Source of the DNA: an uncultured bacterium
GTDB taxonomy: Bacteria; Chloroflexota; Dormibacteria; Aeolococcales; Aeolococcaceae
Assembly (NCBI GenBank): GCA_963847225.1
Contig: CAWJYZ010000003.1
Span: 71,365 to 135,364, forward strand
Direction of reading: 5' to 3'
Length of the DNA stretch: 64,000 nt
How positions within the stretch are numbered: position 1 is the first letter of the stretch; every line of letters starts with the position of its first letter. Below are positions 2,390-42,070 of the stretch, piece after piece. The position numbers and the translations under genes were made by a program. Below the pieces are notes generated by a model. The model searched no databases, was not told where the DNA came from, and worked only from the letters and a program-made list of their open reading frames with translations.

Positions 2390-2614
2390 CTCGATGGTCA
2401 ACCACCCAGATTGGTCGTCGGGACCCCCCAGATCAGCCCCGCGCAGTGTCCCGACCATGGCGCCGCGGCGGGGTCCTCCCATTGCACCGCCCGGGGTGAC
2501 CGGGGCGGCAGGACCGCTGTGGTAGCGTGTTATCGCTTGGGAAAAACGAAAGGTTCGGAAAGAGAGCGGCCATGGCCGCAGCGAGCCGACATCCCGCCGG
2601 CAGAGCGGCCACGC

Positions 2615-11895: not shown

Positions 11896-12294
11896 GACCC
11901 GCCTCTCCGTGCTCGCCGCTCTCTCCATCCCGGCTGACCGGCTTCCCGCCAGCATATGGGGCGGTGCGCATCGCCCAATGTAGCGCATCCGGTGGCCCGC
12001 ATCAATGCGGGCCATGCTTTGCTCGGCCAGGCCGTGGCCCGCAGATCGCCTCTGTCAGAAAGGCAACGCGTCTGCAACGAAGGCGACGGCCCCGCTACCG
12101 ACGGTGATGGATCGGTTGCAGCGTCGCACATCGCGATGCCGGAGTGTGGCGATTGTAACGGGGATGTAGCGCAGGATCGGGGGTTCCGCGACAGCTGCAC
12201 TCGCCGAGCCTAGAGTTCGCGCGTCGCAACCGGCGCGCCAGGCCGAGCGGGCGCCAGGTGGTGGGAAGGCTCCAGGAATCGGAGGAGCTCACGG

Positions 12295-23473: not shown

Positions 23474-25216
<1,743 letters not shown>

Positions 25217-25361: not shown

Positions 25362-26495
25362 TCATGCCGGGTTCTCCTCCAGGAGGGTGGCGGCCGCCTG
25401 GAACGAAGCGGCGGACTCCTCCCGGTACCCTTGGGGCAACTCTACAGCGTCCGCCCCGACGCTGACGGCCCAGGTCAGCGTCGCCTCGAGGTTGCCCACC
25501 CGATCGAGGGGCTCGGTCTGGAAGGAGATCGGCGGTCCCAGCTGCTGCATGGCCGTGTACATCTCCGCGTAGGCGCCGGTGAGCGGCGGGTAGCGGATGG
25601 AGTTGTTCTCCAGGACGCACTGCAGTCCGAGCCGGCTCCGGCAGTAGCCCATCATCTGCTCGGTCACGGCCTCAGCGGTGCTGGTCATCCCGTCCGCGCC
25701 GATGGTCTGGTAGGGGTTGAAAGCGACCCCCACCCGGGTCTGATGCCACATCGTGCCGTCGTCGATCTCCTGCTCCTCGCACTGCAGGTCGGCCGCGGCG
25801 GAGAAGCCAGCTGCCACGAGGTTCCGCACCGTCGTCGGGTCGCTGACATTGCGGATAAAGGGCTCGTCAAACACCGTCATGCAGCGGGCCACGGTGATCT
25901 CGCGAACCTCGAGGACACTGTCATAGGCGGCAGCCAGCTTCGCCCAGAGGTCGTCATAGGCGTGACCGAACGCGCTGGTCCAGAAGCGGCCGATGGTGCC
26001 GCCAGAGCCACTCTGCGGATCGAGCACCGCCACCGGAGCGCCGCCGAGCTGCTTGGCCCAGTCGGGGGCGTCAATCCCTGCGAGGAGGCGGATCTTGATT
26101 CCCACCTTTCCGGTGCCGAGGGTCTTCTCGAGGCTGCGGGCCGCGGCAATCGCCTGGTCGATGACGTTGTCTTTGGTGAGGGGCCCCTCCGGGGTGGCCT
26201 GGAGCTCGCTCCAGGGGGCGTTGATCACGAAGTTGCTCACGCTCTTGAGGTAGCTGAGGGGAGGAGGACCGACCCGGTCGATGAGACCCTGGATGATGGG
26301 CTTGAGGCCAGACGCCGATGGGGTGGAGGTCTGCACGGACGGCTTTGGGGGGCGCGTAGGGCTGGGCTGGGCTGAGCCGGTCGATGCCTGGGGCGAAGGG
26401 CCCGAGCCGCACGCGGCCATGAGCAGGACCAGGAGGAGAGAGGGCACGAGGGCGAGGGGCCGGCGCCGCCGCCTCGTCGGAGGGTTGCATCGCAC
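25362..26495 (-). CDS. Lipoprotein of unknown function (possibly glycan-processing), last gene of the polysaccharide operon
   Basis: GTG 26495 with AGAGGAA upstream. 'RRRRRPLALVPSLLLVLLMAACGSG' (lipobox). No catalytic motif that I can name. Confidence 0.6.
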   Translation of the reverse strand: MRCNPPTRRRRRPLALVPSLLLVLLMAACGSGPSPQASTGSAQPSPTRPPKPSVQTSTPSASGLKPIIQGLIDRVGPPPLSYLKSVSNFVINAPWSELQATPEGPLTKDNVIDQAIAAARSLEKTLGTGKVGIKIRLLAGIDAPDWAKQLGGAPVAVLDPQSGSGGTIGRFWTSAFGHAYDDLWAKLAAAYDSVLEVREITVARCMTVFDEPFIRNVSDPTTVRNLVAAGFSAAADLQCEEQEIDDGTMWHQTRVGVAFNPYQTIGADGMTSTAEAVTEQMMGYCRSRLGLQCVLENNSIRYPPLTGAYAEMYTAMQQLGPPISFQTEPLDRVGNLEATLTWAVSVGADAVELPQGYREESAASFQAAATLLEENPA

Positions 26496-26516
26496 CTTGG
26501 GTTCCTCTGGCTCTGG

Positions 26517-27860
26517 CTACCCGAGACCCTCGGCTGCCGACTCGCCGGGGCCCACCGGAGAGCCGGGGGCCGCGTGGGCCGCCGGCTCGACGGCGGCGAT
26601 TGGCGGCGGCGTCGCGGCCAGGGGCCGGGCCACCCCGCGCAGGTCGACCGGCTCGAGGTCGGCGAGTGGGCGCGAACCGGCTGGCCGCGACGGTGCCACA
26701 CGGCGCAGGCCCAGCCGCGTGTCCCGGAGGCGAAGGAGATCGGCGTAGAGGGTTTCGGTGGCGTCCGTCGCCACCTCCCAGTCGTACTCACGCACCACCC
26801 GTTCGGCAAGCTCCGCCGCGCCACGGCGCTCGTCCGGCAGCGCAGCGAGCACCGCCCCGAGGGTCCGGCTGAGCGCCGCCTGGTCGCCCTGGGGGAAGAG
26901 CCGGGCGCCGGGGGTGTCACGGCTCAGCACCTCGAGGTGTGGGGGGATGTCGCTGACGATCACCGGGAGCCGGTACGAGGCCGCCTCCAGAAGGGTGAGC
27001 GGAAGACCCTCGAGCCGGGAGGGCAGCACGAAGGCGGCGGCGTTGGAGTACAGCTCGTCGCGCAGCGACCCCTGGACAGCACCGGTCGTCACCACCCGCT
27101 CATCCTCGGCCGCCAGGGAGTTGAGGAGACGGACGTATCCGCTGGTGAAGCTGGATCCGCCGGCGATGACCAGACGCCTCGGGGTGTGGACCTGGCGGAA
27201 CGCCCGCAGCAGCAGGTCGGGCGCCTTCTCCGGAACCAGGCGTCCCAGGAAGAGCAGGTAGTCGCCCGTCTCGAGGCCCCATCGATCGGTGATCTGGCGC
27301 GGTTCCCGGACCACCGGAGAGGCGACGCCGTTGGGGATGTAGTGGACGGTCCGGCCGTACCGCTCCCGGTAGTAGTCGACGAGGTTGCGCGAGACGCTGA
27401 TGGTGGCGTGGGGAGCGTGGGCGCTGATCCAACCGGCGGCGCGCAGGCAGGCCCGCGCGCCGAGCCCCCACTTGGCTCGCTCCTGGTCGAGACCGTGAAT
27501 GGTGAGGACGACCCGCGCGGGGGAGAGGGCACGGGGAAGGGGGGAGAATACGGACGGGCCGATGGCGTGGTAATGGATGATGTCGTGGGAGTGCTCTCCG
27601 GGCAGCGTGGCGGCAGCCGTCGAGAGCCCGCTGTGGATCAGCGCCTCGAGCCGTTTGGTGGGAAGGGTGGGCACGTAGCGCACCCGCATGCCGCGGTGCT
27701 CGGCCAGCCTTTCGGGCCCGTAGTTGGCGCGTGCGTACACCGTGACCTGGTGACCGCGGGCAGCCAGGCGCGAGCCGATCTCCTCGACGTGGTGCTCGAT
27801 GCCACCGATGGTGGCGGGAACGCCGCGTTGGCCGATGAAGGCGATCCGCACCGGTCTCAT
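26517..27860 (-). CDS. Glycosyltransferase family 4 (GT-B)
   Basis: 'VRIAFIGQRGVPATIGGIEHHVEEIG' and 'FVLPSRLEGLPLTLLEAASYRLPVIVSDI' (E-x7-E region). Confidence 0.8.
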   Translation of the reverse strand: MRPVRIAFIGQRGVPATIGGIEHHVEEIGSRLAARGHQVTVYARANYGPERLAEHRGMRVRYVPTLPTKRLEALIHSGLSTAAATLPGEHSHDIIHYHAIGPSVFSPLPRALSPARVVLTIHGLDQERAKWGLGARACLRAAGWISAHAPHATISVSRNLVDYYRERYGRTVHYIPNGVASPVVREPRQITDRWGLETGDYLLFLGRLVPEKAPDLLLRAFRQVHTPRRLVIAGGSSFTSGYVRLLNSLAAEDERVVTTGAVQGSLRDELYSNAAAFVLPSRLEGLPLTLLEAASYRLPVIVSDIPPHLEVLSRDTPGARLFPQGDQAALSRTLGAVLAALPDERRGAAELAERVVREYDWEVATDATETLYADLLRLRDTRLGLRRVAPSRPAGSRPLADLEPVDLRGVARPLAATPPPIAAVEPAAHAAPGSPVGPGESAAEGLG

Positions 27861-29098
27861 GCCGCCGCTCGCACGGATGTGGCTCCGGCCTCTGCGTAGA
27901 CACGCTGGAGAAGCTCCAGGTGGCGCTCGGGCGAGAATTCCGTCCGAATCCGCTCACGGGCCTGCTCGCGCATGGCCCAGCCGTGGGCGGGATCGGCCAG
28001 AAAAGGGCGCATCGCGGCGGCGAGGGCGTCCGGGTCGGAGGGGGGGACAAGCTCCCCGGTCACGCCGCTCTCCACCAGTTCGGGCAGGCCGCCGAGGGCG
28101 CTGCCGATGACGGGAAGCCCGCGCGCCAGCGCCTCGAGAACGACCATGGGCTGGTTCTCGTACCAGCGCGAGGGCACTACGACGACCGCAGCTGCCGTCA
28201 TCAGGCGGTGCACCCCGTCCTTGGATAGCAGCCCGTGGAAGCGCACCCGGCCCGGCGCAACGGCGCTGGCGAGGAGGCGGAGCCGCTCCTCCTCGGGACC
28301 GGTGCCGGCGATGTCGAGCTCGGCCCCAGGGAGCAGGCCGACCGCCCGGATGGCGATGTCGACCCCCTTCTCCGGCGACAGCCGCCCGGCGACCAGGGCC
28401 GCACCCCCCGGCGCCGGCTTGGGCGTCATGCCGCGGATATCGATGAAATGGGGGACGTGGCGCATGCGCTGGGGGAAGACCCCAGCCTCGGTCATCTTCG
28501 CGGCCATGAACCGGCTGGGGCAGATGAAGATGCGCACGGGCGAGTAGGCGTGGGTCAGCGTGTGCAGGTACAGCTCCGCGGCGACGACGGCGCTGCGGCC
28601 CAGCGAGCCGTCCTTGCAGCGGCGCCGCACCGCCTGCTGGAAGTGGCCGCCCAGGCAGGCCTCGCAGACACGCCCGTGGTCCAGGAACTGATAGGTGGGA
28701 CAGGCGAGCTTGTAGTCGTGGAGGGTCATCACCGCGGGCAGCCCCCGGCGAGCCACGGGTCGGAGGACGGAGGGGGAGAGCTGGTGGTAGATGTTGTGCA
28801 GGTGGACCACGTCGGGCCGGAAGTCATCGATCACCGCTTCCATACCCCGGCTCGCCGCGGTCGAGTAGAGCATCCGCCCGACCCCGCGAAGCCGGCCGCC
28901 GAGGCTCGGCGGTGGCGGCTCCATCTCGATGTGGGGCGGGAAGTGGGCCGCATACTCGATGTGAGTGTTGTCGGGATGGGCCATGCCGAAGAAGGCGACC
29001 CGGTGGCCAGCTGCGGCTTGGAGCTCGGCCACGTCCTCCATGTACGCCTCCGCGCCGCCGCGGCGGTAGAGGAACTTGTTGACGTGGAGGATCCTCAC
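27857..29098 (-). CDS. Glycosyltransferase family 4 (GT-B)
   Basis: 'MRILHVNKFLYRRGGAEAYM' and 'VVVPSRWYENQPMVVLEALARGLPVIGSALGGLPELV'. ATGA overlap with the downstream GT. Confidence 0.8.
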   Translation of the reverse strand: MRILHVNKFLYRRGGAEAYMEDVAELQAAAGHRVAFFGMAHPDNTHIEYAAHFPPHIEMEPPPPSLGGRLRGVGRMLYSTAASRGMEAVIDDFRPDVVHLHNIYHQLSPSVLRPVARRGLPAVMTLHDYKLACPTYQFLDHGRVCEACLGGHFQQAVRRRCKDGSLGRSAVVAAELYLHTLTHAYSPVRIFICPSRFMAAKMTEAGVFPQRMRHVPHFIDIRGMTPKPAPGGAALVAGRLSPEKGVDIAIRAVGLLPGAELDIAGTGPEEERLRLLASAVAPGRVRFHGLLSKDGVHRLMTAAAVVVVPSRWYENQPMVVLEALARGLPVIGSALGGLPELVESGVTGELVPPSDPDALAAAMRPFLADPAHGWAMREQARERIRTEFSPERHLELLQRVYAEAGATSVRAAA

Positions 29099-29163
29099 TG
29101 GCAGGGTGCCCTCACCGTCGTGCCTTGGCGGTTCTCACGTGGAGCCCCCTCTCCCATTCCGCG

Positions 29164-30645
29164 CTAGGCCTCCTCACCCTCCTCCGCGGGCACGGGGAGG
29201 CCGCGCAGGACGGCGTTCTCGCGGTACCGGGTCACCGCATAGGCCGCGGCCGCGAAGGCGACGTAATACCAGAGAACCACGACCTCGGTGATCACGTTGG
29301 AGACGATGCTGATCATCATGAAGGCGATGACGCAGGAGGCGAAGCCGACCGCGACCGAGCGTTCGTAACTTCGCTTCTTCCATTTCGTATGGCGCATCGA
29401 TTGCCAGGCCACCGCGACCATGCTGAAGAGCAGGGCGAAGTAGGCGATGGTGCCCACCACACCTGTCTCGACATAGGCGCGCAGAAAGTCGTTGTGGGGC
29501 TCCTTCTGCTGGACGGTCTCGAAGGAACTCATCCCCAGTCCGATCCCAGTGATCGGATCCTTGTCGGCCAGGGGTAGGATCTGATCCCAGTAGTCGAAGC
29601 GCCACACAAGGGAGTTGTTGGCGTAGCCAGAGGCGCTCCTCGCCTGGCCGAGGTCGGCGAAGCGCTGCATGATGGTCGGAACCGCCACGACCGAGACCAT
29701 CGCGGCGACAACGATCAACCCGAGGGTCAACCGCCGTCGTCCGAAGATCGCCACGGCGACAACCCCGACCAGCGCGGCCAGCCAGGCGCTCCGGGTGAAT
29801 GTGTAGTAGAGGCAGATGACCGACCCGATCAAGAGCGGCGTGAGAAGCCACTTCTGGCGGCGGCTCAGATGAGGGAAGATGGCGACCCCCATGACGATCA
29901 GCAGGGTGAGGTAGATGGCAAAGGGGTTCGGTTGGGCGAAGGTCCCCTCGTAGCGACCGAAGCCGCCGCTCGAGAACTGCGAGTGGTGGGTCGCGATATT
30001 GAACAGGGCATAGCCCACCGGCACGATCGCGGAGAGGTAGATGGCCGTGACCATGCGTTGGATGGCGGCACGATCGACCAGCATCACCTCCAATACGGCG
30101 AGCATGACCACCACCGAGGCGATACGAAGAGCAGCCAGGAGGCTGACCAGGATGTTAGACGAATCGATCACGCTGAGGAAGCCCGCGATCGCGAAGAGGA
30201 TGAGGCAGATACGGTGGATCGAGGCGGGTGGCGACTTGCGTCCCTCATGCAGGCGACCGAGGAACCAGAAGTAGGCGAGGACGATGAGGAGCACCGCGAG
30301 GGCCCCGGCCGGGTCGAGGCCCGATGCCGACGCCGTGGTCTGAGTGACGACCCCGTTGCTGGTCGGTCCTCCCTTGACCACATCGAGGCTGGCGCGCAGG
30401 ACGATGGTGGTGAGCACGAAGCGCTGAAAGTCGACGAGGCCCAGGGCCATCAACCCGATCCCCCCGAAGACGGCGATGGGGAGGACGAGCAGCAGCTTGT
30501 TGCCGCCGAGAGCGCCCTCGATGGCCGTCTCGGCGGCGAGCGCCACGATGGCAACGGCGCAGAGAAGCATCAGCAGCTTCCGGCGCGCCGAGATCGGACC
30601 TCCGGTCGCTCGAGGCGGGGCGAGGGCTGCGGCCATGCCCGTCAC
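29164..30645 (-). CDS. O-antigen ligase / Wzy-type polymerase family membrane protein
   Basis: About 11-12 TM segments. 'YYTFTRSAWLAALVGVVAVAIF' is a Wzy_C-like block, followed by the periplasmic loop 'NNSLVWRFDYWDQILPLADKDPITGIGLG'. Confidence 0.7.
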   Translation of the reverse strand: MTGMAAALAPPRATGGPISARRKLLMLLCAVAIVALAAETAIEGALGGNKLLLVLPIAVFGGIGLMALGLVDFQRFVLTTIVLRASLDVVKGGPTSNGVVTQTTASASGLDPAGALAVLLIVLAYFWFLGRLHEGRKSPPASIHRICLILFAIAGFLSVIDSSNILVSLLAALRIASVVVMLAVLEVMLVDRAAIQRMVTAIYLSAIVPVGYALFNIATHHSQFSSGGFGRYEGTFAQPNPFAIYLTLLIVMGVAIFPHLSRRQKWLLTPLLIGSVICLYYTFTRSAWLAALVGVVAVAIFGRRRLTLGLIVVAAMVSVVAVPTIMQRFADLGQARSASGYANNSLVWRFDYWDQILPLADKDPITGIGLGMSSFETVQQKEPHNDFLRAYVETGVVGTIAYFALLFSMVAVAWQSMRHTKWKKRSYERSVAVGFASCVIAFMMISIVSNVITEVVVLWYYVAFAAAAYAVTRYRENAVLRGLPVPAEEGEEA

Positions 30646-30697
30646 CGGACCGGCTCCTCGGTGACCGGGGCACGGCCCCGTGGGCTGTCCCAGCTGC

Positions 30698-32443: not shown

Positions 32444-32559
32444 CTACGCCACCTCGCTCCTGCCGGCCCCGCCTCCCGGCACCGTCGAGAAGGTCTGCGC
32501 CCCGGGGGCAGAGGCCTCCTCGGCCGGGAGGCAGCATCGACCTCGCGCTGTGAAGCGGC

Positions 32560-33567: not shown

Positions 33568-33669
33568 GGGGGAGGGATCTGAGCCTGCTCCTGCCGCGAT
33601 GCAGCGATCGCACCGTCGCGACTGCGCGTGATCACCGAGGTGCTCGAGGGCGGAAGGAGGGGCGGCGGG

Positions 33670-34839: not shown

Positions 34840-34855
34840 GGTCGTCAGGTCCTCC

Positions 34856-35701
34856 TCAGATGTCCGGGAGCGGGTGGCGGGAGCGGTACGCGGGGAGAGC
34901 CCACCCCGCCGCGAGCAGGATCGCGCCGAGGGTAAGGATGAGCAGTCCGATGCTGATCCCCCCACCGCTTCCACCGGCCCCGGTGCCCGGGGTGCTGGCG
35001 GCTAAGACGTCCCCCCCAGGGGTGGCGGTGGAGCTCCCGGCTCCCTGTCCGGAGGGCGTGGAGGTGGACGTCGTCGCGGTGGAGGTTGGCTGCACGGAGC
35101 CCGACGGCGTCGGCGTCGTCAGTGGCGAGGTACAGCCGAGGACCCGGATGAAGCCGGAGGCGAGGCTCGCCCGGTTCTTCTGCTTCTGACCGGGGTACTG
35201 GTGAGCTGTGTGGGTTCCGATGTCGATCTGGAAGTAGCCGCAAGTGTCGACGCTGTACTCGTGGAGGAGTGTCTGGGTCTCGTTGGGCGTCCAGGTGACG
35301 CTGAAGGCCTGACTGCCGGGCATGGTGGCCTGGGTGGTGCCCTGCGGCCCCGGGAAGGCGATTCCAGGCTGGCCGGGCTGACCGTCGGAGACGTCGACCC
35401 CGTTGTAGGTGAGGATGTGATGGAGCGAGAAGGTGAAGGCGACGGTCTGCGTTTGGTCGGTGAGATTCTTGACCACCACATCGAAGTCAACGAGTGCCGG
35501 CCCGTCCGCGACGTCATAGGCGGTGGGGCTAACCTGGAACCCGGTCGGCGGGCTGGCATCCAAGATACCAAGAAAGGTCGGATTGCCCCCAGCCGCGACG
35601 GGGACCGGGATGGCCGATAGGGCGATGATGGCGGCACCGAGGGCGCTGAGGACGCCACCGCCGCGCTTGACCCAGGTCCTCGGACTCCGCTGGCCCTTCA
35701 T
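34856..35701 (-). CDS. Secreted protein with C-terminal anchor / sorting-signal-like tail, unknown function
   Basis: ATG 35701 with AGGAGG upstream and signal 'VLSALGAAIIALSAIPVPVAAGG'. C-terminus: '...STPGTGAGGSGGG' + 'ISIGLLILTLGAILLAAGWAL' + 'PAYRSRH'. Confidence 0.6.
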   Translation of the reverse strand: MKGQRSPRTWVKRGGGVLSALGAAIIALSAIPVPVAAGGNPTFLGILDASPPTGFQVSPTAYDVADGPALVDFDVVVKNLTDQTQTVAFTFSLHHILTYNGVDVSDGQPGQPGIAFPGPQGTTQATMPGSQAFSVTWTPNETQTLLHEYSVDTCGYFQIDIGTHTAHQYPGQKQKNRASLASGFIRVLGCTSPLTTPTPSGSVQPTSTATTSTSTPSGQGAGSSTATPGGDVLAASTPGTGAGGSGGGISIGLLILTLGAILLAAGWALPAYRSRHPLPDI

Positions 35702-35774
35702 CGGCGTCTCGCCTCCTGATATGCGGGTGCTTGGCATCCTCATGCACATGCGTTGTGGGCCCCTCCTCATCTCG

Positions 35775-36680
35775 TCAACAGGTCCGCGGCGGTGACGACC
35801 CGTCATCCGCCATGCAGGTCGTGATCTGGCTGAGTTCTGCTCGGGCGCTCGAGGCCGGTCCATTTTCCGTGCCGAGCTCCTCGCCCTTGAGAGCCTGCAG
35901 CTGCCCCACGTTGGCGGGATAGCCGGCGGGGGTCAACTGAAGCACCTGGGAGAAGAGGGCTCGCGCCGTCGACTGCATGGCGCTCGCCTGGCTCTCTACC
36001 CGCGCGAGGAGGGCCTTCTCCGTGGAGTAGTTGGCTGCCGAGCTCGTCAGAGCCCGACCCAGGTTCGCCGCGCGCCCGGCGATGGAGGAGGCCTCGACGC
36101 TCATGATGCCGGCTCCGATCCCAACGTGGACCAGGGGGTCGATGAGGCCGCCGACCCGGGTCGACGGGTCGACGCTGCGGACGTCTTGCAGGAGCACGTC
36201 CTCCAGGCTGTCCGTGGCGATCTTCGCCCCCACGGCTTGCAGCTGATGCTGGACGTCGTGGACCAGGGAGAGGAGGGCGGCGGCTTGGCTGGAACCGAGG
36301 CGGGCGGACTGGATATCGCCGATCAGCCTGTCCAGTACCTTCTGTCGTTCGGCGACGGCGCCGGCGCCGAGCCGTCTGAGGGAGTCCATCTGCTCCGCGA
36401 CGATGAGGGTGTGGTCGTTCATGAGGGCGTTGATCTCGGCCGTGATCTGGGTTGGCTCGCCATCACTGGGTGTGAGATCAATCTGGTTGAGCTCGCTGAC
36501 CAGCCGCTGCTCCAAGGCGTCCACGGCCTGGTTGGTCGATGCCACCGGGAGGGGCGGGCTGGCGACGGCCGGCGTCCCGATGACGGGGCCATACTCGGTG
36601 GTCCCGCACGCAGCCAGGGCGACTGCCGCGCTGGCCATGGCGCCCAGCCATGCTGCGGTCCGCAACCCCATACCTGTCAT
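35775..36680 (-). CDS. Helical lipoprotein of unknown function, first gene of the polysaccharide operon
   Basis: 'AAWLGAMASAAVALAACGT' (lipobox). The rest is predicted all-alpha (A/L/Q rich). Confidence 0.55.
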   Translation of the reverse strand: MTGMGLRTAAWLGAMASAAVALAACGTTEYGPVIGTPAVASPPLPVASTNQAVDALEQRLVSELNQIDLTPSDGEPTQITAEINALMNDHTLIVAEQMDSLRRLGAGAVAERQKVLDRLIGDIQSARLGSSQAAALLSLVHDVQHQLQAVGAKIATDSLEDVLLQDVRSVDPSTRVGGLIDPLVHVGIGAGIMSVEASSIAGRAANLGRALTSSAANYSTEKALLARVESQASAMQSTARALFSQVLQLTPAGYPANVGQLQALKGEELGTENGPASSARAELSQITTCMADDGSSPPRTC

Positions 36681-36923
36681 GGTCCCCCTCTGCCGTCTCG
36701 GCTCCCCGCTTGCGCCTGGTCACCGTGGACTGCTCGGATAAAATCAGCCGTGCCCGAAGACTGAGGCATTATCCCAGGCCGGTCCGCAAAGAGTCAATTT
36801 GTCGACATCGAAAGCTTCCGCGGCGGAGTGGGGGAATGCAACCCAATTGGGGGATCGGTGGCCCATTCAGGGGGGATATTGGGGGACGGTAGACGGAAAT
36901 ACCGCCGCCGCCATCGCCCGCTG

Positions 36924-36952
36924 TTGACCCATCCAGTCCGTTCAGGTACGCT
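36924..36952 (+). promoter_or_regulatory. Possible sigma70-type promoter for the priming transferase / PAPS synthase operon
   Basis: TTGACC (36924-36929), 17-nt spacer, TACGCT (36947-36952), about 70 nt upstream of ATG 37023. Pattern match only. Confidence 0.3.
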
Positions 36953-37022
36953 GAGTGGTGCACAGCTGGCGGGGCAGTGGCCTCTTGTATCACCTGACGC
37001 CGGCTGCACAGAGGGGGTCTGC

Positions 37023-38576
37023 ATGGCGGGGGTAGCGGATGTGGGGGACGGCTCGACCGAGCTGGCGGCGGTCCCCGCGGATTTTGTAGATGTCACTCTG
37101 ATCGGGCGCCGGAGCGCCGAGCTCGCCAGACGTGTTCGGGACGCTGTTCCTCATGCGCCGGCCCGACCGCGGGCCCGCACCCGCTGGCTGATGGTCATGG
37201 CTCTGCTGTCTCTGGCGGTTGACGTGGTCGCTGTCGAGCTCGCCTACATTCTTGCCAAGGCCTTCCGTGCCACCCACTTCGACATCGGCCCGGTGCTTCT
37301 CCATGAGGTTGATACGAGGATCTTCCTCACCAGCCTGGCCTGGCCCATGGTGTTCGCGCTCTATGGCCTGTATGACCTTCAGCGACCCACGCATATGACA
37401 GCCGAGATGCAGCGTCTACTGCAAGCCGTGGTCACGAGCGTCCTGCTGGTCGTCCTCATCGCCTTCGCCACCCAGATCGAGCTGTCCCGCGGGTTCATCC
37501 TCTCCCTCCTCGGGTTCGGCCTCGTCACCACGGTGGGGGGGCGGCTGGCGCTACGACGGTTAGCCCATGACTTGAATGCTCGGGCCGTCACCAGCCAGCT
37601 AACCTTGGTCGTCGGGTGCAACGACGAGGCTCGGACCATGGCGCGCACCTTCCGACGGCGCCCCTGGATGGGATACGCCGTCAGCGGGTTCGCCGAGGTC
37701 TCGCCAACAGGTCTCGACCATATCGACGGAATCCCCGTTCTGGGAGGCATCGAGAGCGTCGGCTCCATCGTCCGCGAGCGAGGCATCAGCACCATCGTGA
37801 TTGCCGGCAGTGCTGCGGGTGGTGAGACGCTCCAGCAGATCGACAGCGCCCTGGATGGCGCGGACGTGACCGTGCGGGTGTCGCCGGGATTGCCAAACCT
37901 CGGTGCCTCCCGCGTCGTTCTCGAGCCGGTCGATGGCATGGCCCTGTTTTCCCTCCGTCGCCAGCGCTTCTCTCGGCGCCAGCGACTGCTGAAACGCGCT
38001 CTGGACGTGGTAGCCGCTTCAATTCTCCTGACGATCACCCTGCCGTTCATCGTGGTTGCCGCCGTGTTGGTGCGGGTGACCAGCTCGGGTCCGGTTCTCT
38101 TTCGGCAGCGCAGGGTTGGCGCCCATGGACACCTCTTCACCCTCTACAAATTCCGCACCATGGTCCAAGACGCAGAAGAGCAGCGGTCGATCCTCCAGGC
38201 CGACAACGAGGCGGACGGCCTCCTCTTCAAGATGCGCGATGACCCGAGGGTAACTCGTGTCGGCCGCGTTCTCCGCCGCTTCTCTCTCGACGAGCTTCCC
38301 CAACTGTGGAACGTTCTGCGCGGTGAGATGAGCATGGTGGGTCCTCGGCCCGCGCTGCCCGAGGAGGTCGAGCGGTACGATGAGCAGCGCCGCGCCAGAC
38401 TGCGGGTCAAGCCGGGCCTCACCGGCCTCTGGCAGGTCAATGGGCGGCATGACCTGGTGTTCGAGGATTACGTGCGCTACGACCTCTTCTATGTTGCCAA
38501 CTGGTCCTTGACGATGGACCTCTACATCCTTGCGAAGACCATACCTGCGGTGCTCGGCGCTCGCGGGTCGTACTGA
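37023..38576 (+). CDS. Polyprenyl-phosphate sugar-1-phosphate transferase (WbaP/ExoY-type priming enzyme)
   Basis: ATG 37023 with GAGGGGG upstream. 'RALDVVAASILLTITLPFIVVAAVLVRVTSSGPVLFRQRRVGAHGHLFTLYKFRTM' and 'DELPQLWNVLRGEMSMVGPRP'. N-terminal TM bundle plus a central Rossmann-like region. Confidence 0.85.
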   Translation: MAGVADVGDGSTELAAVPADFVDVTLIGRRSAELARRVRDAVPHAPARPRARTRWLMVMALLSLAVDVVAVELAYILAKAFRATHFDIGPVLLHEVDTRIFLTSLAWPMVFALYGLYDLQRPTHMTAEMQRLLQAVVTSVLLVVLIAFATQIELSRGFILSLLGFGLVTTVGGRLALRRLAHDLNARAVTSQLTLVVGCNDEARTMARTFRRRPWMGYAVSGFAEVSPTGLDHIDGIPVLGGIESVGSIVRERGISTIVIAGSAAGGETLQQIDSALDGADVTVRVSPGLPNLGASRVVLEPVDGMALFSLRRQRFSRRQRLLKRALDVVAASILLTITLPFIVVAAVLVRVTSSGPVLFRQRRVGAHGHLFTLYKFRTMVQDAEEQRSILQADNEADGLLFKMRDDPRVTRVGRVLRRFSLDELPQLWNVLRGEMSMVGPRPALPEEVERYDEQRRARLRVKPGLTGLWQVNGRHDLVFEDYVRYDLFYVANWSLTMDLYILAKTIPAVLGARGSY

Positions 38577-38627
38577 TCGCGGCGCCCATAGGGTGGTCGC
38601 CTGGCACAACCGAACCTGGGAGAAGCG

Positions 38628-40283
38628 ATGGCCAAGGGTTTCGTCATCTGGTTGACCGGCCTGTCAGGTGCTGGGAAGTCGACGATCGCCGGACAGCTCT
38701 CCCGGGAGCTCCGCGAGCTGGGCCGGCATGTCGAGGTTCTCGATGGGGACGAGGTGCGCACCCACCTCTCCAAGGGCCTGGGGTTCTCCAAGGAGGACCG
38801 CGACACCAACATCCGCCGCATCGGCTATGTGGCGGGCCTGGTGGGCCGGAGCGGCGGGATCGCCATCACGGCGGCCATCTCCCCCTATCGTGAGATTCGC
38901 GACGAGATCCGAGGCCGGACCGAGAACTTCGTCGAGGTGTATGTGCGCTGCACCCTGGATGAGTTGATCCGGCGGGATGTCAAGGGTCTGTACGCCAAGG
39001 CCCTCGCCGGCGAGATCGCCAACTTCACCGGTATCAGCGACCCCTATGAGGAGCCTCTCCACCCGGAGATTGTCGTCGACAGCGGACGGGAATCGGTGGA
39101 GGATTCGGTTCGAATCATCCTCGCCCGGCTGGAGCAGCTGGGGCACATCGCACTCGGTGTCGGCGAGAGGCTCGTGGACGGGGAGGAGGCGAAGCTTCTC
39201 CGCGAGGAGGCGCGGACGCTGCCGTTCCTGGACCTGAGCCCGCACGCGGCAGCCGACGCCGGGATGATCGGGATTGGGGCGCTGGCCCCTCTGCGCGGTT
39301 TCATGGGGTCTGCCGACTACACGGCGGTCCTCGACTCTGGTCGGCTGCGCGGGGGCCAGCCGTTCACCATCCCCGTGGTCCTGCGCCTGGACGAGGACGA
39401 CGCAGAGCGGCTGCGCGCGGCCAGGCGTGTGGCGCTGCGATCGGCTGGGAAGGTGGTCGCCGTCACGGACGTGGAGGAGGTCTTCCGGACCGACCCGGCT
39501 CGGGAGGCGCTGACCGTCTATGGCACCGATGAGACAGCTCATCCCGGGGTCCGGCTGCTCCAGACCTCGGGTGACTGGGCGCTGGCGGGACCGGTGACGG
39601 CGCTCAGCCGTCCGAGCACGGGTTTCCCGGTGTACGACCTCACGCCGCTCGAGGTGCGACGGCTCATCGCCGAGCGAGGCTGGCGGACGGTGGTTGGTTT
39701 CCAGACCCGCAACCCCGTCCACCGCGCCCACGAGTATCTCCAGAAGGTGGCTCTCGAGAACGTTGATGGGCTGCTGCTCCATCCCCTGGTCGGGGAGACC
39801 AAGAGCGACGACATCCCGGCTGACGTGCGGATGGCGTGCTATGAGGTGCTCCTGGAGGGGTACTACCCGAAGGACCGGGTCCTGCTGGTGACCAATCCGG
39901 CCTGGATGCGCTACGCCGGCCCCAAGGAGGCGGTCTTCCACGCCCTGATCCGGCGCAACTACGGATGCACCCACTTCATCGTCGGTCGCGACCACGCCGG
40001 GGTGGGGAGCTACTACGACACGTACGCTGCCCACCGGATCTTCGACGAGTACGCACCCGGCGAGCTGGGCATCGAGATCCTGCGCTTCGAGCATGCGTTC
40101 TTCTGCCGCGCCTGTGGTGGGATGGCATCGACTCGAACCTGCCCACACTCCGTCGACGACCATGCGGTGCTGAGTGGCACGCGGGTCCGTGAGCTCCTCC
40201 GGCGGGGTGAGCCGCTGCCGCTCGAGTTCACCCGCCCGGAGATCGCCGAGCTGCTTCGGACGTCCACCGAGGACGTCGCCTAG
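38628..40283 (+). CDS. Bifunctional PAPS synthase: N-terminal APS kinase (CysC) + C-terminal ATP sulfurylase (Sat)
   Basis: Kinase: 'IWLTGLSGAGKSTIA', 'LDGDEVR', 'FSKEDRDTNIRRIGYVA'. Sulfurylase: 'GFQTRNPVHRAHEYL', 'HPLVGETKSDDIP', 'IVGRDHAGVG'. Confidence 0.9.
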   Translation: MAKGFVIWLTGLSGAGKSTIAGQLSRELRELGRHVEVLDGDEVRTHLSKGLGFSKEDRDTNIRRIGYVAGLVGRSGGIAITAAISPYREIRDEIRGRTENFVEVYVRCTLDELIRRDVKGLYAKALAGEIANFTGISDPYEEPLHPEIVVDSGRESVEDSVRIILARLEQLGHIALGVGERLVDGEEAKLLREEARTLPFLDLSPHAAADAGMIGIGALAPLRGFMGSADYTAVLDSGRLRGGQPFTIPVVLRLDEDDAERLRAARRVALRSAGKVVAVTDVEEVFRTDPAREALTVYGTDETAHPGVRLLQTSGDWALAGPVTALSRPSTGFPVYDLTPLEVRRLIAERGWRTVVGFQTRNPVHRAHEYLQKVALENVDGLLLHPLVGETKSDDIPADVRMACYEVLLEGYYPKDRVLLVTNPAWMRYAGPKEAVFHALIRRNYGCTHFIVGRDHAGVGSYYDTYAAHRIFDEYAPGELGIEILRFEHAFFCRACGGMASTRTCPHSVDDHAVLSGTRVRELLRRGEPLPLEFTRPEIAELLRTSTEDVA

Positions 40284-42039: not shown

Positions 42040-42070
42040 CTCTTCCCGAGGCCGAGCGCTTGCAGCGCTC

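What the first reader, a model, noticed from the sequence alone, without database searches (positions are those of the whole stretch)
25362..40283. Wzx/Wzy-type polysaccharide locus with embedded sulfotransferase and its own PAPS synthase (predicted sulfated glycan)
Two divergent operons share one intergenic region (36681..37022).

Minus strand, in order: lipoprotein, anchored secreted protein, Wzz-like co-polymerase, class-B sulfotransferase, MurJ-type flippase, Wzy/O-antigen-ligase-like polymerase, GT4, GT4, lipoprotein. Gaps are tight or genes overlap (ATGA at 27857).

Plus strand: WbaP-type priming transferase, then the fused APS kinase/ATP sulfurylase.

One priming enzyme plus two GTs predicts a short (about trisaccharide) repeat unit, sulfated at the lipid-linked or polymer stage. 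Sulfated bacterial exopolysaccharides are known in a few lineages (e.g. cyanobacteria, rhizobia, marine bacteria) but are rare. A locus that carries its own PAPS synthase is unusual. No nucleotide-sugar genes, BY-kinase or outer-membrane export component are present.
Basis: partly seen in the sequence, partly recalled or inferred. Interest (0 to 1): 0.7.

Follow-up and report, generated by a model that had tools for sequence, protein, structure and literature searches.

The report
Predicted sulfated surface-glycan locus in Dormibacterota
This is a real gene cluster from an uncultured soil phylum (Dormibacterota) that most likely builds a sulfate-decorated surface polysaccharide; such clusters are already known in cyanobacteria, an actinomycete and marine bacteria, and the new point is that this one is conserved across dozens of Dormibacterota species.

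Summary
On the minus strand lie LipoB, a wall-anchored protein (Anch), a Wzz-like co-polymerase, a sulfotransferase (ST1), a MurJ-type flippase, a Wzy_C polymerase, two GT4 glycosyltransferases and the lipoprotein LipoA. Transcribed divergently are a WbaP/WcaJ-class priming transferase and a fused APS kinase/ATP sulfurylase. Catalytic motifs are intact in ST1 and in both PAPS-synthase domains.

The window comes from Candidatus Dormibacterota. The core is collinear in about 34 species-level genomes of that phylum. The PAPS synthase is adjacent in only about 7 of them; elsewhere extra sulfotransferases flank the core. ST1-family genes also sit in glycan-assembly loci in Rubrobacteraceae and other Actinomycetota.

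The best explanation is Wzx/Wzy-type assembly of a sulfated repeat-unit glycan, with sulfation in the cytoplasm before flipping (confidence about 0.65). The kind is known: synechan xss, Actinoplanes wps-1 with its adjacent sulfurylase/APS-kinase gene, and Vibrio capsule loci with cysDNC. A locus with its own PAPS synthase is therefore not unprecedented.

It also missed that Anch carries a sortase-type sorting signal and that LipoA is a TIM barrel resembling glycosidases.

Verdict: new member of a known kind. No chemistry is shown. Interest 0.45.

The parts
35775..36680 (-). LipoB: first gene of the minus-strand operon. A lipoprotein of an orphan family; function unknown.
   Evidence: Lipobox VALAAC in the window protein and a conserved LLAGC-type lipobox in 22 of the 23 orthologues examined. 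Present in about 29 Dormibacterota loci at 27-43% identity. No Pfam hit and no solved-structure hit with a profile.
34856..35701 (-). Anch: secreted Ig/Fn3-like beta-sandwich protein with a Thr/Pro/Ser-rich stalk and a sortase-type C-terminal sorting signal ([ST]TPxTG, hydrophobic helix, basic tail).
   Evidence: Alignment A2 shows the conserved motif, two invariant Cys and the three-part C-terminus. Some homologues are annotated LPXTG, and P0327 carries PF00746. AF2 model has a beta-sandwich core with pLDDT around 90. Foldseek matches Fn3-like domains of GH3 enzymes and of streptococcal C5a peptidase.
33670..34839 (-). Wzz-like polysaccharide co-polymerase (PCP) with no kinase domain.
   Evidence: Two TM helices flank an extracytoplasmic region of about 250 aa. 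Pfam Wzz is below threshold for the window protein, but 26 of 27 orthologues match PF02706. The start codon was set from the conserved MEIRDYLRAIRR N-terminus.
32560..33567 (-). ST1: soluble PAPS-dependent sulfotransferase, the conserved in-operon sulfotransferase.
   Evidence: Sulfotransfer_3 at 5.2e-15. Has the 5'-PSB motif GTGRSGST and the 3'-PB motif RDPRAAAHS, and no TM helix. Family alignment A1 shows these as invariant, plus E33 and a CGCG..C cluster. The nearest solved structures are the OLS and CurM PKS sulfotransferase domains (3.7e-15 and 1.9e-10).
30698..32443 (-). MurJ-type MOP-superfamily flippase, predicted to export the sulfated lipid-linked unit.
   Evidence: PF03023 at 4.2e-51. 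The NCBIfam MurJ equivalog scores 172.5, below its 235.55 cutoff. About 13 TM segments. A 52%-identical homologue lies in the same GT4b/GT4a/ST1 module in an Actinomycetes MAG.
29164..30645 (-). Wzy_C-domain membrane protein, predicted repeat-unit polymerase. A ligase or O-oligosaccharyltransferase role is not excluded.
   Evidence: PF04932 at 2.2e-22. The crude hydropathy scan gives 14 partly overlapping TM segments. Weak NCBIfam hits to IctB and TfpM, far below their cutoffs. No hit to any solved structure.
27857..29098 (-). GT4b: cytoplasmic GT4 glycosyltransferase.
   Evidence: Glycos_transf_1 at 8.7e-34 and Glyco_transf_4 at 8.7e-16. 69-80% identical across Dormibacterota loci and 57-63% in Actinomycetota modules.
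26517..27860 (-). GT4a: cytoplasmic GT4 glycosyltransferase, translationally coupled to GT4b through an ATGA overlap.
   Evidence: Pfam GT4 domains. Overlap verified. 67-75% identical across the phylum.
25362..26495 (-). LipoA: lipoprotein with a (beta/alpha)8 TIM-barrel domain, a candidate glycanase. Found only in part of the phylum.
   Evidence: No Pfam hit. AF2 model pLDDT 88.9, pTM 0.83. Top Foldseek PDB hits are GH35, GH42, GH14, GH10 and the PgaB C-terminal domain, with TM-scores of only 0.39-0.49. E211, E296/N297 and E352 are invariant. Not related to GHL15. Follows GT4a in L005, L023, L025, L026, L031, L033, L034 and L038.
36681..37022 (.). Divergent intergenic region holding the two promoter-like sites.
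   Evidence: Minus strand: TTGACT, 18 nt, GATAAT (10 of 12 matches, with an extended TG) at 36797-36768. Plus strand: 36717-36744. These are the only two hits in 23-41 kb; shuffled sequence gives a mean of 0.9. No Rfam family anywhere in the window.
37023..38576 (+). Large polyprenyl-phosphate hexose-1-phosphate transferase (priming transferase, WbaP/WcaJ class).
   Evidence: Bac_transf at 3.3e-69 plus CoA_binding_3. TIGR03025 scores 427 bits, above its 295.55 cutoff. WcaJ (365) and WbaP (342) both fall below their cutoffs, so the sugar specificity is open. Four to five TM segments.
38628..40283 (+). Fused PAPS synthase: N-terminal APS kinase, then PUA-like domain and ATP sulfurylase.
   Evidence: Pfam domains. 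Motifs GLSGAGKS, DGD, QTRNPVHRAH and GRDHAG are present. Aligns collinearly with human PAPSS1 (1x6v, residues 3-539) but only as two swapped stretches with Aquifex 2gks. NF004040 scores 523, below its 669 cutoff, in two stretches. Sits 51 nt downstream of the priming transferase. Adjacent to the locus in L005, L026, L031, L033, L034 and L038.
10972..12015 (-). ST4: paralogue of ST1 (35% identity). Possibly associated with the locus.
   Evidence: Sulfotransfer_3; blastp against ST1 gives 5e-55.
8685..9611 (+). ST3: second-type sulfotransferase. Its orthologues (71-74% identity) lie next to the GT4a end of the locus in other Dormibacterota.
   Evidence: Its start overlaps the stop of a His_Phos_1 gene at 7993-8688.
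2363..3487 (+). ST2: paralogue of ST3. Its orthologues (59-70% identity) lie downstream of the priming transferase in many Dormibacterota loci.

Best explanation
This is a chromosomal Dormibacterota locus for Wzx/Wzy-type assembly of a sulfated surface heteroglycan, built from lipid-linked repeat units.

Proposed pathway:
1. The WbaP/WcaJ-class priming transferase puts a hexose-1-phosphate on polyprenyl phosphate.
2. The two cytoplasmic GT4 enzymes extend this to a unit of at least three sugars, using housekeeping nucleotide sugars.
3. ST1 has no TM helix or signal peptide, so it must work in the cytoplasm, where PAPS is found. It sulfates the lipid-linked unit before export. PAPS comes from the fused APS kinase/ATP sulfurylase, which is co-transcribed with the priming transferase in this lineage. 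The ST2/ST3/ST4-type enzymes encoded nearby may add further sulfates.
4. The MurJ-type MOP flippase moves the anionic unit across the membrane.
5. The Wzy_C protein polymerises it, with the Wzz-like co-polymerase controlling chain length.
6. The product stays at the surface of what is probably a monoderm cell. The same operon encodes a sortase-type anchored Ig-like protein and the lipoprotein LipoB. In this subclade the TIM-barrel lipoprotein LipoA probably trims or releases the polymer.

What is shown: domain identities, intact catalytic motifs, operon-like organisation, phylum-wide collinearity, and recurrent linkage of the ST1 family to glycan-assembly genes.

What is inferred: the acceptor, the stage at which sulfation happens, whether polymerisation occurs, and where the product ends up.
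For: Domain assignments and cutoffs.

Topology: ST1, both GT4s and the PAPS synthase have no TM segment; the hydropathy scan gives about 13 TM segments for the flippase, 14 partly overlapping ones for Wzy and 2 for the Wzz-like protein.

Motifs are intact in ST1 and in both PAPS-synthase domains.

Operon signals: short gaps, the ATGA overlap, and two promoter-like sites confined to the divergent intergenic region.

Conservation: the order priming transferase <-> LipoB, Anch, Wzz, ST1, MurJ, Wzy, GT4b, GT4a is collinear in about 34 Dormibacterota species genomes. 26 of 27 Wzz orthologues match PF02706.

ST1-family context in other lineages:
- GT4b-GT4a-ST1 with overlapping genes in an Actinomycetota MAG.
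- GT4b, GT4a, GHL15, ST1 and a MurJ-like gene in Actinomycetes.
- Wzx, ST, WecG, priming transferase, sulfatase, Wzx, ST1 in Rubrobacteraceae, in one case with a UDP-glucose dehydrogenase.
- GT4, three sulfotransferases and a CysQ-like Inositol_P gene.

The PAPS synthase is adjacent in about 7 loci at 60-82% identity, or 39% in the rearranged L039.

Published analogues with the same logic: synechan xss (PMC8205485), Actinoplanes wps-1 with AMIS_7390 (PMC13390465), and Vibrio KMM 8419 (PMC11641403).
Against: There are no chemical or expression data, and the phylum has no cultured member.

The nearest solved relatives of ST1 are PKS-embedded sulfotransferase domains (CurM and OLS), not carbohydrate sulfotransferases. 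The family is uncharacterised.

Sequence alone cannot separate a Wzy_C polymerase from a ligase or an O-oligosaccharyltransferase.

The window's own Wzz-like protein is below the Pfam threshold.

The PAPS synthase is adjacent only in a subclade. It could be the organism's general sulfate-activating enzyme.

The locus has no nucleotide-sugar genes, no LCP ligase and no sortase, so the composition and attachment of the product are unknown.
Confidence: 0.65

Rival explanations
1. Protein glycosylation instead of a free polymer. The sulfated oligo- or polysaccharide is transferred onto a surface protein, most obviously onto the Thr/Pro/Ser-rich stalk of Anch, which is encoded in the same operon. 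The transfer would be done either by the Wzy_C protein acting as an O-oligosaccharyltransferase (as PglL, TfpO and WsaB do) or by an LCP enzyme encoded elsewhere (as with Actinomyces oris LcpA and GspA). Alternatively the target could be the pilins encoded next door.
For: The Wzy_C family includes O-oligosaccharyltransferases, and the window protein has a weak TfpM hit (1.2e-07). Anch is a sortase-type substrate with an S/T/P-rich stalk and is conserved as the second gene of the operon across the phylum. Glycosylation of a sortase-anchored protein has a precedent in A. oris (PMC6381275, listed). Type IV pilus genes start 450 nt beyond the PAPS synthase.
Against: The operon has a conserved Wzz-like co-polymerase, which points to chain-length-controlled polymerisation. 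The TfpM score is 31 bits against a 600-bit cutoff. No homologue of the adjacent PilT-family gene (the only pilus gene used as a query) was found next to the locus in any other genome, so the pilus link appears specific to this window. No LCP gene was found among the window ORFs scanned. S/T/P-rich linkers are common in wall-anchored proteins and lipoproteins generally.
Confidence: 0.12
2. The PAPS synthase is not dedicated to the locus. It is the cell's general sulfate-activation enzyme, serving assimilation and all sulfotransferases, and it simply happens to lie downstream of the priming transferase in one subclade. The glycan locus may still be sulfated, but 'its own PAPS synthase' is a positional accident.
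For: Adjacency holds in only about 7 of about 34 Dormibacterota loci. In the others the slot downstream of the priming transferase holds sulfotransferases or unrelated genes. The window has four sulfotransferases spread over 30 kb that would all need PAPS. No second sulfate-activation gene is visible in the window.
Against: The gap from the priming transferase is 51 nt on the same strand, with no promoter-like or convincing terminator-like site between them. Linkage is kept at 60-82% identity in several species, and in a rearranged Dormibacteraceae locus (L039) a PAPS-synthase homologue (39%) lies about 2 kb from ST1. In Actinoplanes, deleting the adjacent sulfurylase/APS-kinase gene gave the same kind of developmental defect as deleting cluster genes (PMC13390465).
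Confidence: 0.3
3. ST1 acts on something other than a glycan, such as a membrane lipid, a hydroxy-fatty-acyl intermediate, or a protein tyrosine or serine. On this view its place in the operon reflects shared envelope function rather than modification of the repeat unit.
For: The best solved-structure matches are the activating sulfotransferase domains of the CurM and OLS polyketide synthases, followed by tyrosylprotein sulfotransferases. No carbohydrate sulfotransferase family matches strongly; NoeE scores only 19 bits.
Against: No PKS, ACP or lipid-synthesis genes lie nearby. Across at least three lineages the constant neighbours of ST1 are GT4s, MOP flippases, priming transferases, a sulfatase and glycosidase-like proteins. 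In Actinomycetota ST1 overlaps the stop codon of GT4a.
Confidence: 0.08

Closest known systems
Actinoplanes missouriensis wps-1 cluster with the adjacent AMIS_7390 gene (PMC13390465, 2026)
   Same: A Wzx/Wzy-dependent cluster in a monoderm, high-GC soil bacterium. It has Wzx, Wzy and Wzz proteins, embedded sulfotransferases and a glycoside hydrolase. A sulfate adenylyltransferase/APS kinase family gene lies beside it, and deleting that gene gives a phenotype. Sulfation there is also predicted, not shown.
   Different: wps-1 has two sulfotransferases from other families (Gal/GlcNAc-type and heparan-sulfate-type signatures), plus a methyltransferase, a kinase-like protein and a GH26. Here the sulfotransferase belongs to an uncharacterised Sulfotransfer_3 clade and the flippase is MurJ-type. 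The operon also carries an orphan lipoprotein and a sortase-type anchored protein, and the whole core is conserved across many species of a phylum. No sequence comparison with the wps proteins was run.
Synechan xss cluster of Synechocystis PCC 6803 (PMC8205485)
   Same: A Wzx/Wzy system (priming GT, Wzx, Wzy, PCP) with sulfotransferases inside the cluster. The number of GTs and sulfotransferases matches the sugar:sulfate ratio of a chemically verified sulfated EPS.
   Different: xss is plasmid-borne in a diderm. It has eight GTs, a PCP and a chromosomal OPX, its own regulators, and no PAPS-synthesis gene is listed among its cluster genes (the term PAPS does not occur in the paper's main text). 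The Dormibacterota locus has two GTs, no OPX or kinase, and in this subclade a linked PAPS synthase.
Sulfated capsule locus of Vibrio sp. KMM 8419 (PMC11641403)
   Same: Second copies of PAPS-synthesis genes lie together with sulfotransferases in a polysaccharide cluster. The authors propose this pairing as a hallmark of sulfated polysaccharide synthesis, and the polymer's structure has been solved.
   Different: Export is ABC-transporter (Kps) dependent, in a diderm. PAPS is made by separate CysD, CysN and CysC proteins, not by a kinase-first fusion with a Sat-type sulfurylase.
Bacillus subtilis teichuronic acid (tua) operon (comparison from established knowledge, not tested by sequence here beyond NCBIfam TuaC hits)
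   Same: A monoderm Wzx/Wzy-like gene set making an anionic wall polymer: priming transferase (TuaA), MOP flippase (TuaB), GT4 (TuaC), Wzy_C protein (TuaE) and Wzz-like protein (TuaF). Both window GT4s hit the TuaC model weakly (1e-12 to 1e-15).
   Different: The negative charge in teichuronic acid comes from uronic acid made by TuaD (UDP-glucose dehydrogenase). No such gene is in this locus, where the charge would come from sulfate. The TuaC scores (47-58 bits) are far below the 550-bit cutoff.
Metazoan PAPS synthase (PAPSS1/2) and bacterial Sat-CysC fusions
   Same: One polypeptide carries both the APS kinase and the ATP sulfurylase activities. The window protein is collinear with human PAPSS1 over residues 3-539.
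   Different: Its highest-scoring relatives overall are bacterial and archaeal sulfurylases and the Aquifex Sat/CysC enzyme, which has the opposite domain order. Only about 16 of the top 150 cluster representatives share the kinase-first order (my reading of the stretch positions).

Membership tests
Wzx/Wzy-dependent glycan assembly pathway | Polyprenyl-phosphate sugar-1-phosphate priming transferase | tested here: met
   Bac_transf at 3.3e-69. TIGR03025 scores 427 bits, above its 295.55 cutoff.
Wzx/Wzy-dependent glycan assembly pathway | MOP-superfamily flippase for the lipid-linked repeat unit | tested here: met
   PF03023 MurJ at 4.2e-51 with about 13 TM segments. It is MurJ-type, not Wzx-type (PF01943), and scores below the NCBIfam MurJ equivalog cutoff (172.5 against 235.55). 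What it actually flips is inferred.
Wzx/Wzy-dependent glycan assembly pathway | Wzy-type polymerase (polytopic membrane protein with a Wzy_C domain) | tested here: inconclusive
   The Wzy_C domain (2.2e-22) and multiple TM segments are present. The same domain occurs in ligases and O-oligosaccharyltransferases, and no solved relative was found.
Wzx/Wzy-dependent glycan assembly pathway | Polysaccharide co-polymerase (Wzz/PCP): two TM helices around an extracytoplasmic helical domain | tested here: met
   Two-TM topology. The window protein is below threshold (17 bits against 25.5), but 26 of 27 orthologues match PF02706, best E 3e-09.
Wzx/Wzy-dependent glycan assembly pathway | OPX (Wza) outer-membrane exporter and BY-kinase (needed for diderm group-1-type capsules and EPS only) | tested here: not met
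   No such domain was found among the GC3-supported ORFs scanned in the window or among the genes called in L001/L002. This is expected for a monoderm envelope, so it does not argue against the pathway.
PAPS-dependent sulfotransferase superfamily | 5'-phosphosulfate-binding loop and 3'-phosphate-binding motif | tested here: met
   GTGRSGST at residue 9 and RDPRAAAHS at residue 161. Both are invariant in the family alignment and align with CurM and OLS ST.
PAPS-dependent sulfotransferase superfamily | Catalytic base near the acceptor site | tested here: inconclusive
   The invariant E33 aligns with the Glu of the PPELHLL segment of OLS/CurM ST in a weak N-terminal stretch (8.4 bits) of the profile match. 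That this Glu is the catalytic base is from my memory of the CurM ST literature, not checked here.
Carbohydrate (glycan) sulfotransferases | Demonstrated sugar acceptor, or membership of a characterised carbohydrate sulfotransferase family | not testable with these tools
   Only context supports a glycan acceptor. The NoeE model scores 19 bits against a 500-bit cutoff.
Bifunctional PAPS synthase | Intact APS kinase (P-loop, DGD) and ATP sulfurylase (QxRNPxHxxH, GRDHAG) active-site motifs | tested here: met
   GLSGAGKS, DGD, QTRNPVHRAH and GRDHAG are present. TIGR00455 (218 bits against 138.7) and TIGR00339 (395 against 323) are both above their cutoffs.
Bacterial Sat/CysC bifunctional family (NF004040) | Sulfurylase-first domain order and a score above the family cutoff | tested here: not met
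   523 bits against a 669 cutoff, matched as two stretches. The order is kinase-first, collinear with PAPSS1.
Sortase-dependent wall-anchored proteins | N-terminal signal peptide plus a C-terminal LPXTG-like motif, hydrophobic segment and basic tail | tested here: inconclusive
   The three-part signal is conserved, but the motif is [ST]TP[GS]TG, not LPXTG. One homologue matches PF00746 and several are annotated LPXTG. No sortase gene was found among the window ORFs scanned.
Teichuronic-acid-type (tua) anionic wall polymer operon | UDP-glucose dehydrogenase supplying uronic acid, together with the TuaA/B/C/E/F-like set | tested here: not met
   Counterparts of TuaA, B, C, E and F are present by domain. 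No UDPG_MGDP_dh gene was found among the window ORFs scanned. The resemblance is one of mechanism only.
Clan GH-A glycoside hydrolases (for LipoA) | (beta/alpha)8 barrel with catalytic Glu residues on strands 4 and 7, and significant family-level similarity | tested here: inconclusive
   The TIM-barrel model is confident (pLDDT 88.9) and the top Foldseek hits are GH35, GH42 and GH10, but TM-scores are 0.39-0.49 and old yellow enzymes also match. Glu residues are invariant. There is no Pfam hit.

The most novel reading that the evidence does not exclude
The locus may not be a variable capsule or EPS locus at all. It may encode a core envelope component of the phylum: a phosphate-free, sulfate-charged anionic wall glycopolymer. 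This would play the role that teichoic or teichuronic acids play in Firmicutes, held at the surface with the co-encoded sortase-type anchored protein and lipoprotein, and suited to phosphorus-poor peat and desert soils.

Hints in favour:
- Gene content and order are the same across about 34 species. By general knowledge, capsule and O-antigen loci usually vary in gene content even within a species.
- The gene set resembles the tua operon, with no uronic-acid gene.
- Secreted PF04185 phosphoesterases (phospholipase C/acid phosphatase type) recur as neighbours of the locus: four paralogues in this window and PE4-type orthologues beside about 15 other loci. A PhoD phosphatase lies beside the related Actinomycetes module.
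- Up to three sulfotransferase types travel together, so the product could be heavily sulfated.
Probability: 0.15. Interest if true: 0.8.

Novelty: new member of a known kind. Interest (0 to 1): 0.45.

Why it matters
Some recent papers still describe sulfated polysaccharides in bacteria as essentially confined to cyanobacteria (PMC8205485, PMC13390465). A sulfotransferase-bearing Wzx/Wzy locus conserved across many Dormibacterota, with related modules in Rubrobacteraceae and other Actinomycetota, would mean that sulfated surface glycans are widespread in soil Terrabacteria.

It would also give the first concrete hypothesis about the cell surface of a phylum that has no cultured member. That surface matters for desiccation tolerance, metal binding and phage recognition in peat and polar desert soils.

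Practically, the compact 15-kb locus is a manageable candidate for producing a sulfated polysaccharide in another host: one priming transferase, two GTs, one sulfotransferase, a flippase, a polymerase, a co-polymerase and a single-polypeptide PAPS synthase. ST1 also defines a large uncharacterised sulfotransferase clade, with more than 2,000 hits, that is worth biochemical study.

All of this is prediction. Without chemistry it remains an annotation-level result.

Tried and rejected
1. LipoA as a member of the GHL15 family that accompanies ST1 in Actinomycetes loci. Rejected: hhalign probability 0.4%.

2. An Anch-Wzz gene fusion as 'Rosetta stone' evidence of interaction. P0352 (488 aa) looked like a fusion, but its sequence breaks down into frameshift-like nonsense. 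The apparent L026 fusion came from an error in my ORF extension; there is a stop codon between the two genes. Dropped.

3. A riboswitch or other known RNA element in the divergent intergenic region. No Rfam hit at gathering threshold anywhere in the window.

4. A link to pilin glycosylation through the neighbouring type IV pilus genes. No PilT-family homologue (the only pilus gene queried) lies beside the locus in any of the 84 loci then in hand, L001-L084, although flanks beyond the PAPS synthase are short (about 2 kb). Downgraded to part of a minor rival.

5. Assigning LipoB by profile search against solved structures. Only noise was returned, E >= 0.06.

6. Telling Wzy polymerase from ligase through solved structures. 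No hits.

7. Literature on the Dormibacterota envelope or on sulfotransferases in the phylum. No paper holds both 'Dormibacterota' and 'sulfotransferase', and three broader searches found nothing relevant.

8. Horizontal-transfer island. G+C is even across the locus at 0.66-0.72; tRNA and integrase genes were not searched for. Combined with conservation across the phylum, I did not pursue this.

9. One Pfam batch failed because of a bad coordinate. The STa-type gene between the PAPS synthase and the priming transferase in L005-type loci is therefore known only from tblastn.

Full report
OBSERVATION

The window is about 68% G+C, so I used third-position GC to separate real genes from the many spurious ORFs.

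On the minus strand, in transcription order:
- LipoB, 35775-36680.
- Anch, an anchored secreted protein, 34856-35701.
- A Wzz-like protein, 33670-34839.
- ST1, a Sulfotransfer_3 protein, 32560-33567.
- A MurJ-family flippase, 30698-32443.
- A Wzy_C protein, 29164-30645.
- Two GT4 glycosyltransferases, 27857-29098 (GT4b) and 26517-27860 (GT4a).
- LipoA, a lipoprotein, 25362-26495.

On the plus strand:
- A Bac_transf/CoA_binding_3 priming transferase, 37023-38576.
- A fused APS kinase/PUA/ATP sulfurylase, 38628-40283.

The ATGA overlap at 27857-27860 is real. Gaps between genes run from -4 to 116 nt. The only two sigma-70-like promoter matches in 18 kb both fall in the 342-bp divergent intergenic region, one on each strand.

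Orthologue alignments move three start codons downstream of the longest ORF: Wzz to 34839, Anch to 35701 and the priming transferase to 37023. This removes the apparent overlaps between genes.

No nucleotide-sugar, BY-kinase or OPX gene was found among the GC3-supported ORFs scanned across the window.

ARE THE ENZYMES INTACT?

ST1 has the 5'-phosphosulfate loop (GTGRSGST) and the 3'-phosphate motif (RDPRAAAHS). Both are invariant across a 12-member family alignment, as are E33 and a CGCG..C cysteine cluster. ST1 has no TM segment or signal peptide, so it must act in the cytoplasm.

Its nearest solved relatives are the sulfotransferase domains of the OLS and CurM polyketide synthases (3.7e-15 and 1.9e-10), then tyrosylprotein sulfotransferases. 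No carbohydrate sulfotransferase matches well.

The PAPS synthase has all the kinase and sulfurylase motifs. It exceeds the NCBIfam domain cutoffs for both activities. It is collinear with human PAPSS1, but matches the Aquifex Sat/CysC enzyme and NF004040 only as two swapped stretches. In a search of 1.84 billion cluster representatives, about 16 of the best 150 share the kinase-first order (my reading of the stretch coordinates). The architecture is therefore uncommon but not unique.

ORGANISM AND CONSERVATION

A genome-collection scan with the ST1 alignment returned 396 relatives. The best 35 or so (58-65% identity) are all Candidatus Dormibacterota MAGs; four of them are labelled Saccharimonadales or Chloroflexia in their records. 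NCBI places the phylum in kingdom Bacillati. Next come Rubrobacteraceae and other Actinomycetota at about 45% identity.

I ran tblastn with every window protein against these loci. The order priming transferase <-> LipoB, Anch, Wzz, ST1, MurJ, Wzy, GT4b, GT4a is collinear in about 34 species-level genomes. Identities to the window proteins are:
- GT4a and GT4b: 67-80%.
- Wzy: 63-71%.
- MurJ-like: mostly 60-74%.
- Priming transferase: 61-70%.
- ST1: 58-65%.
- Anch: 49-65%.
- Wzz-like: 40-65%.
- LipoB: 27-43%.

The window's own Wzz-like protein is below the Pfam threshold, but 26 of 27 orthologues match PF02706.

The PAPS synthase is adjacent only in L005, L026, L031, L033, L034 and L038, plus a rearranged L039. 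LipoA follows GT4a in those six loci (L039 carries only a rearranged, opposite-strand copy) plus L023 and L025.

In other lineages the core is flanked by additional sulfotransferases. Downstream of the priming transferase these are an 'STa' type and an orthologue of window ST2 at 59-70%. Beside GT4a they are an orthologue of window ST3 at 71-74% together with a PF04185 phosphoesterase.

The window itself has ST2 (2363-3487), ST3 (8685-9611) and ST4 (10972-12015, a 35% paralogue of ST1). It also has a TauE/SafE permease, an Rrf2 regulator, two histidine phosphatases and four PF04185 paralogues.

IS THE ACCEPTOR A GLYCAN?

There is no direct evidence. The context, however, is consistent across lineages:
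- In an Actinomycetota MAG, GT4b, GT4a and ST1 form a run with overlapping stop and start codons, among four other sulfotransferases.
- In Actinomycetes MAGs the set is GT4b, GT4a, GHL15, ST1 and a MurJ-like flippase (fused to NHL/Big_7 domains in one case), with NHL-repeat surface proteins.
- In two Rubrobacter-type loci ST1 directly follows a Wzx-type gene, in clusters with a WecG/TagA GT, a priming transferase and a sulfatase. One also has a second sulfotransferase; the other has a UDP-glucose dehydrogenase and an epimerase.
- One locus has a GT4, three sulfotransferases and a CysQ-like inositol-phosphatase-family gene, which is the expected way to recycle PAP.

ST1 usually lies next to, or within a gene or two of, a MOP flippase. 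This fits a dedicated exporter for an anionic lipid-linked unit. The MurJ-like protein scores below the NCBIfam MurJ equivalog cutoff and travels with the module into Actinomycetes. I therefore read it as a locus-specific flippase, not the housekeeping lipid II flippase. I could not check for a second murJ in the genome.

THE ORPHAN PROTEINS

Anch belongs to a family of about 150 sequences with no Pfam domain. Its layout is a signal peptide, a conserved domain of about 170 aa with two invariant cysteines, a Thr/Pro/Ser-rich stalk, a conserved [ST]TP[GS]TG motif, a hydrophobic helix and a basic tail. That is the layout of a sortase sorting signal, although the motif is not canonical LPXTG. One homologue matches PF00746. 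The AF2 core is a beta-sandwich resembling Fn3-like domains of GH3 enzymes and of wall-anchored streptococcal peptidases.

LipoA gives a confident TIM-barrel model (pLDDT 88.9). Its best structural neighbours are clan GH-A glycosidases and the PgaB C-terminal domain, but TM-scores are only 0.39-0.49 and unrelated TIM barrels also match. 'Candidate glycanase' is as far as the evidence goes. It is not GHL15.

LipoB has a conserved lipobox, and no detectable relatives in Pfam or the PDB.

Lipoproteins, a sortase-type signal and the lack of OPX all fit a monoderm envelope. That is an inference.

MECHANISM

The best-supported reading is Wzx/Wzy-type assembly of a sulfated repeat-unit glycan, in these steps:
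1. The priming transferase primes polyprenyl phosphate.
2. Two GT4s extend the unit to at least three sugars.
3. ST1 sulfates it in the cytoplasm using PAPS from the co-transcribed synthase. ST2, ST3 and ST4 may add further sulfates.
4. The MurJ-type flippase exports it.
5. The Wzy_C protein polymerises it under Wzz control.
6. The product is kept at the surface or processed there.

Confidence is about 0.65.

Rivals:
- The glycan is transferred to a protein such as the Anch stalk, with the Wzy_C protein or an LCP enzyme as the transferase (0.12).
- ST1 has a non-glycan acceptor (0.08).
- Not exclusive of the main model: the PAPS synthase is the cell's general sulfate-activating enzyme and is linked only by position (0.3).

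COMPARISON WITH WHAT IS KNOWN

The kind is established.
- Synechan xss is a Wzx/Wzy cluster with two sulfotransferases and a verified sulfated product (PMC8205485).
- Actinoplanes wps-1 is a monoderm Wzx/Wzy/Wzz cluster with two sulfotransferases and a GH26. Next to it lies a sulfate adenylyltransferase/APS-kinase family gene whose deletion impairs sporangium formation (PMC13390465).
- The Vibrio KMM 8419 capsule locus carries second copies of cysDNC alongside sulfotransferases. Its authors call that pairing a hallmark of sulfated polysaccharide synthesis (PMC11641403).

The claim that a linked PAPS synthase is unusual is therefore weakened.

What differs here is the lineage (an uncultured phylum), the fixed gene content and order across dozens of species, the MurJ-type flippase, the orphan anchored protein and lipoprotein, the uncharacterised ST1 clade, and the kinase-first PAPS synthase. 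I found no paper linking Dormibacterota with sulfotransferases or sulfated glycans.

The gene set also resembles the B. subtilis teichuronic acid operon (established knowledge, plus weak TuaC hits). It lacks the UDP-glucose dehydrogenase, so the resemblance is one of mechanism only and does not make it a member.

VERDICT

This is a real, well-delimited and conserved locus, and its interpretation as a predicted sulfated glycan is reasonable. It is a new member of a known kind, not a new kind.

The most novel reading not excluded is a phosphate-free, sulfate-charged wall polymer that is a core envelope component of the phylum. It rests on the fixed synteny and the recurring secreted phosphoesterase or PhoD neighbours. 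I put it at about 0.15.

Interest 0.45.

Noticed in passing
window 1595-12015: A second sulfation-rich stretch. It holds three more Sulfotransfer_3 genes (2363-3487, 8685-9611, 10972-12015), a TauE/SafE anion permease (3520-4434), an Rrf2 regulator whose best specific match is CymR (6297-6881), and two His_Phos_1 phosphatases. One phosphatase (7993-8688) overlaps the start of the sulfotransferase at 8685, and the other (longest ORF 1595-2680, minus strand; start not refined) overlaps the 5' end of the opposite-strand ST2 ORF at 2363-3487. They could be PAP-recycling phosphatases, but that is speculation.
   Followed up: partly
window 9670-10812, 12295-14454, 21950-23185, 23474-25336: Four secreted or lipoprotein paralogues of the PF04185 'phosphoesterase' family (phospholipase C/acid phosphatase type) lie within 16 kb. 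PE1 starts 25 nt after LipoA. PE4-type orthologues lie next to the glycan locus in about 15 other Dormibacterota genomes, often paired with an ST3 orthologue. A PhoD phosphatase sits beside the related module in L085.
   Followed up: partly
window 14503-15700 and 16747-17950: A direct repeat of about 1.2 kb at 99-100% identity (775 nt exact). As a result the C-terminal ~400 aa of two adjacent large secreted proteins are identical: 14505-16601 (no Pfam hit) and 16749-19655 (PQQ-like beta-propeller). This could be a recent duplication, gene conversion or an assembly artefact.
   Followed up: partly
window 40735-48096: A type IV pilus gene set lies directly beyond the PAPS synthase: a PilT-family ATPase (40735-41880, +), two proteins with prepilin N-methylation motifs (43895-44584 and 44548-45060, which overlap by 37 nt, -), PilC (45057-46310, -) and PilB (46315-48096, -). 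A PilT-family homologue is not next to the glycan locus in the other genomes examined (only PilT was queried).
   Followed up: partly
window 32560-33567 (ST1 residues 46-60) and alignment A1: The ST1 family has an invariant R-x-C-x-C-G...C-x-x-W cluster, in a segment (residues about 40-100) that was not aligned to the CurM or OLS sulfotransferase domains in the profile search. It may be a metal site or an acceptor-binding lid. ST4 has it too.
   Followed up: no
L008, L011, L013, L014, L016, L020, L022 (between Wzy and GT4b); L053; L085: Several Dormibacterota loci carry an insert of 2.5-4 kb between Wzy and GT4b. In L014 it encodes an 859-aa NHL-repeat protein. Related Actinomycetes loci have giant NHL/Big_7 proteins, and in L085 the called gene fuses NHL/Big_7 domains to the MurJ-like flippase (1708 aa).
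   Followed up: no
L040 6184-7665; L086 5226-6686: Two Rubrobacter-type loci (L040, a Rubrobacteraceae chromosome; L086, an untitled metagenome contig with near-identical gene order) encode a PF00884 sulfatase between the priming transferase and the Wzx-ST1 pair. This suggests that the sulfation pattern is edited or turned over in that lineage.
   Followed up: no
L087 11844-12596: A CysQ-like Inositol_P family gene lies directly after a run of GT4, ST1, ST, ST. This fits PAP recycling linked to the sulfotransferase module.
   Followed up: no
L012, L027, L031, L034: MAGs labelled 'Candidatus Saccharimonadales' or 'uncultured Chloroflexia' carry the full Dormibacterota-type locus at the same identity as bona fide Dormibacterota. 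They are probably mislabelled records.
   Followed up: no
window 52183-54342: A 719-aa AAA_15/AAA_21 ATPase (OLD/Abi-like domains) lies next to a two-component system. It could be a defence gene; I did not examine it.
   Followed up: no
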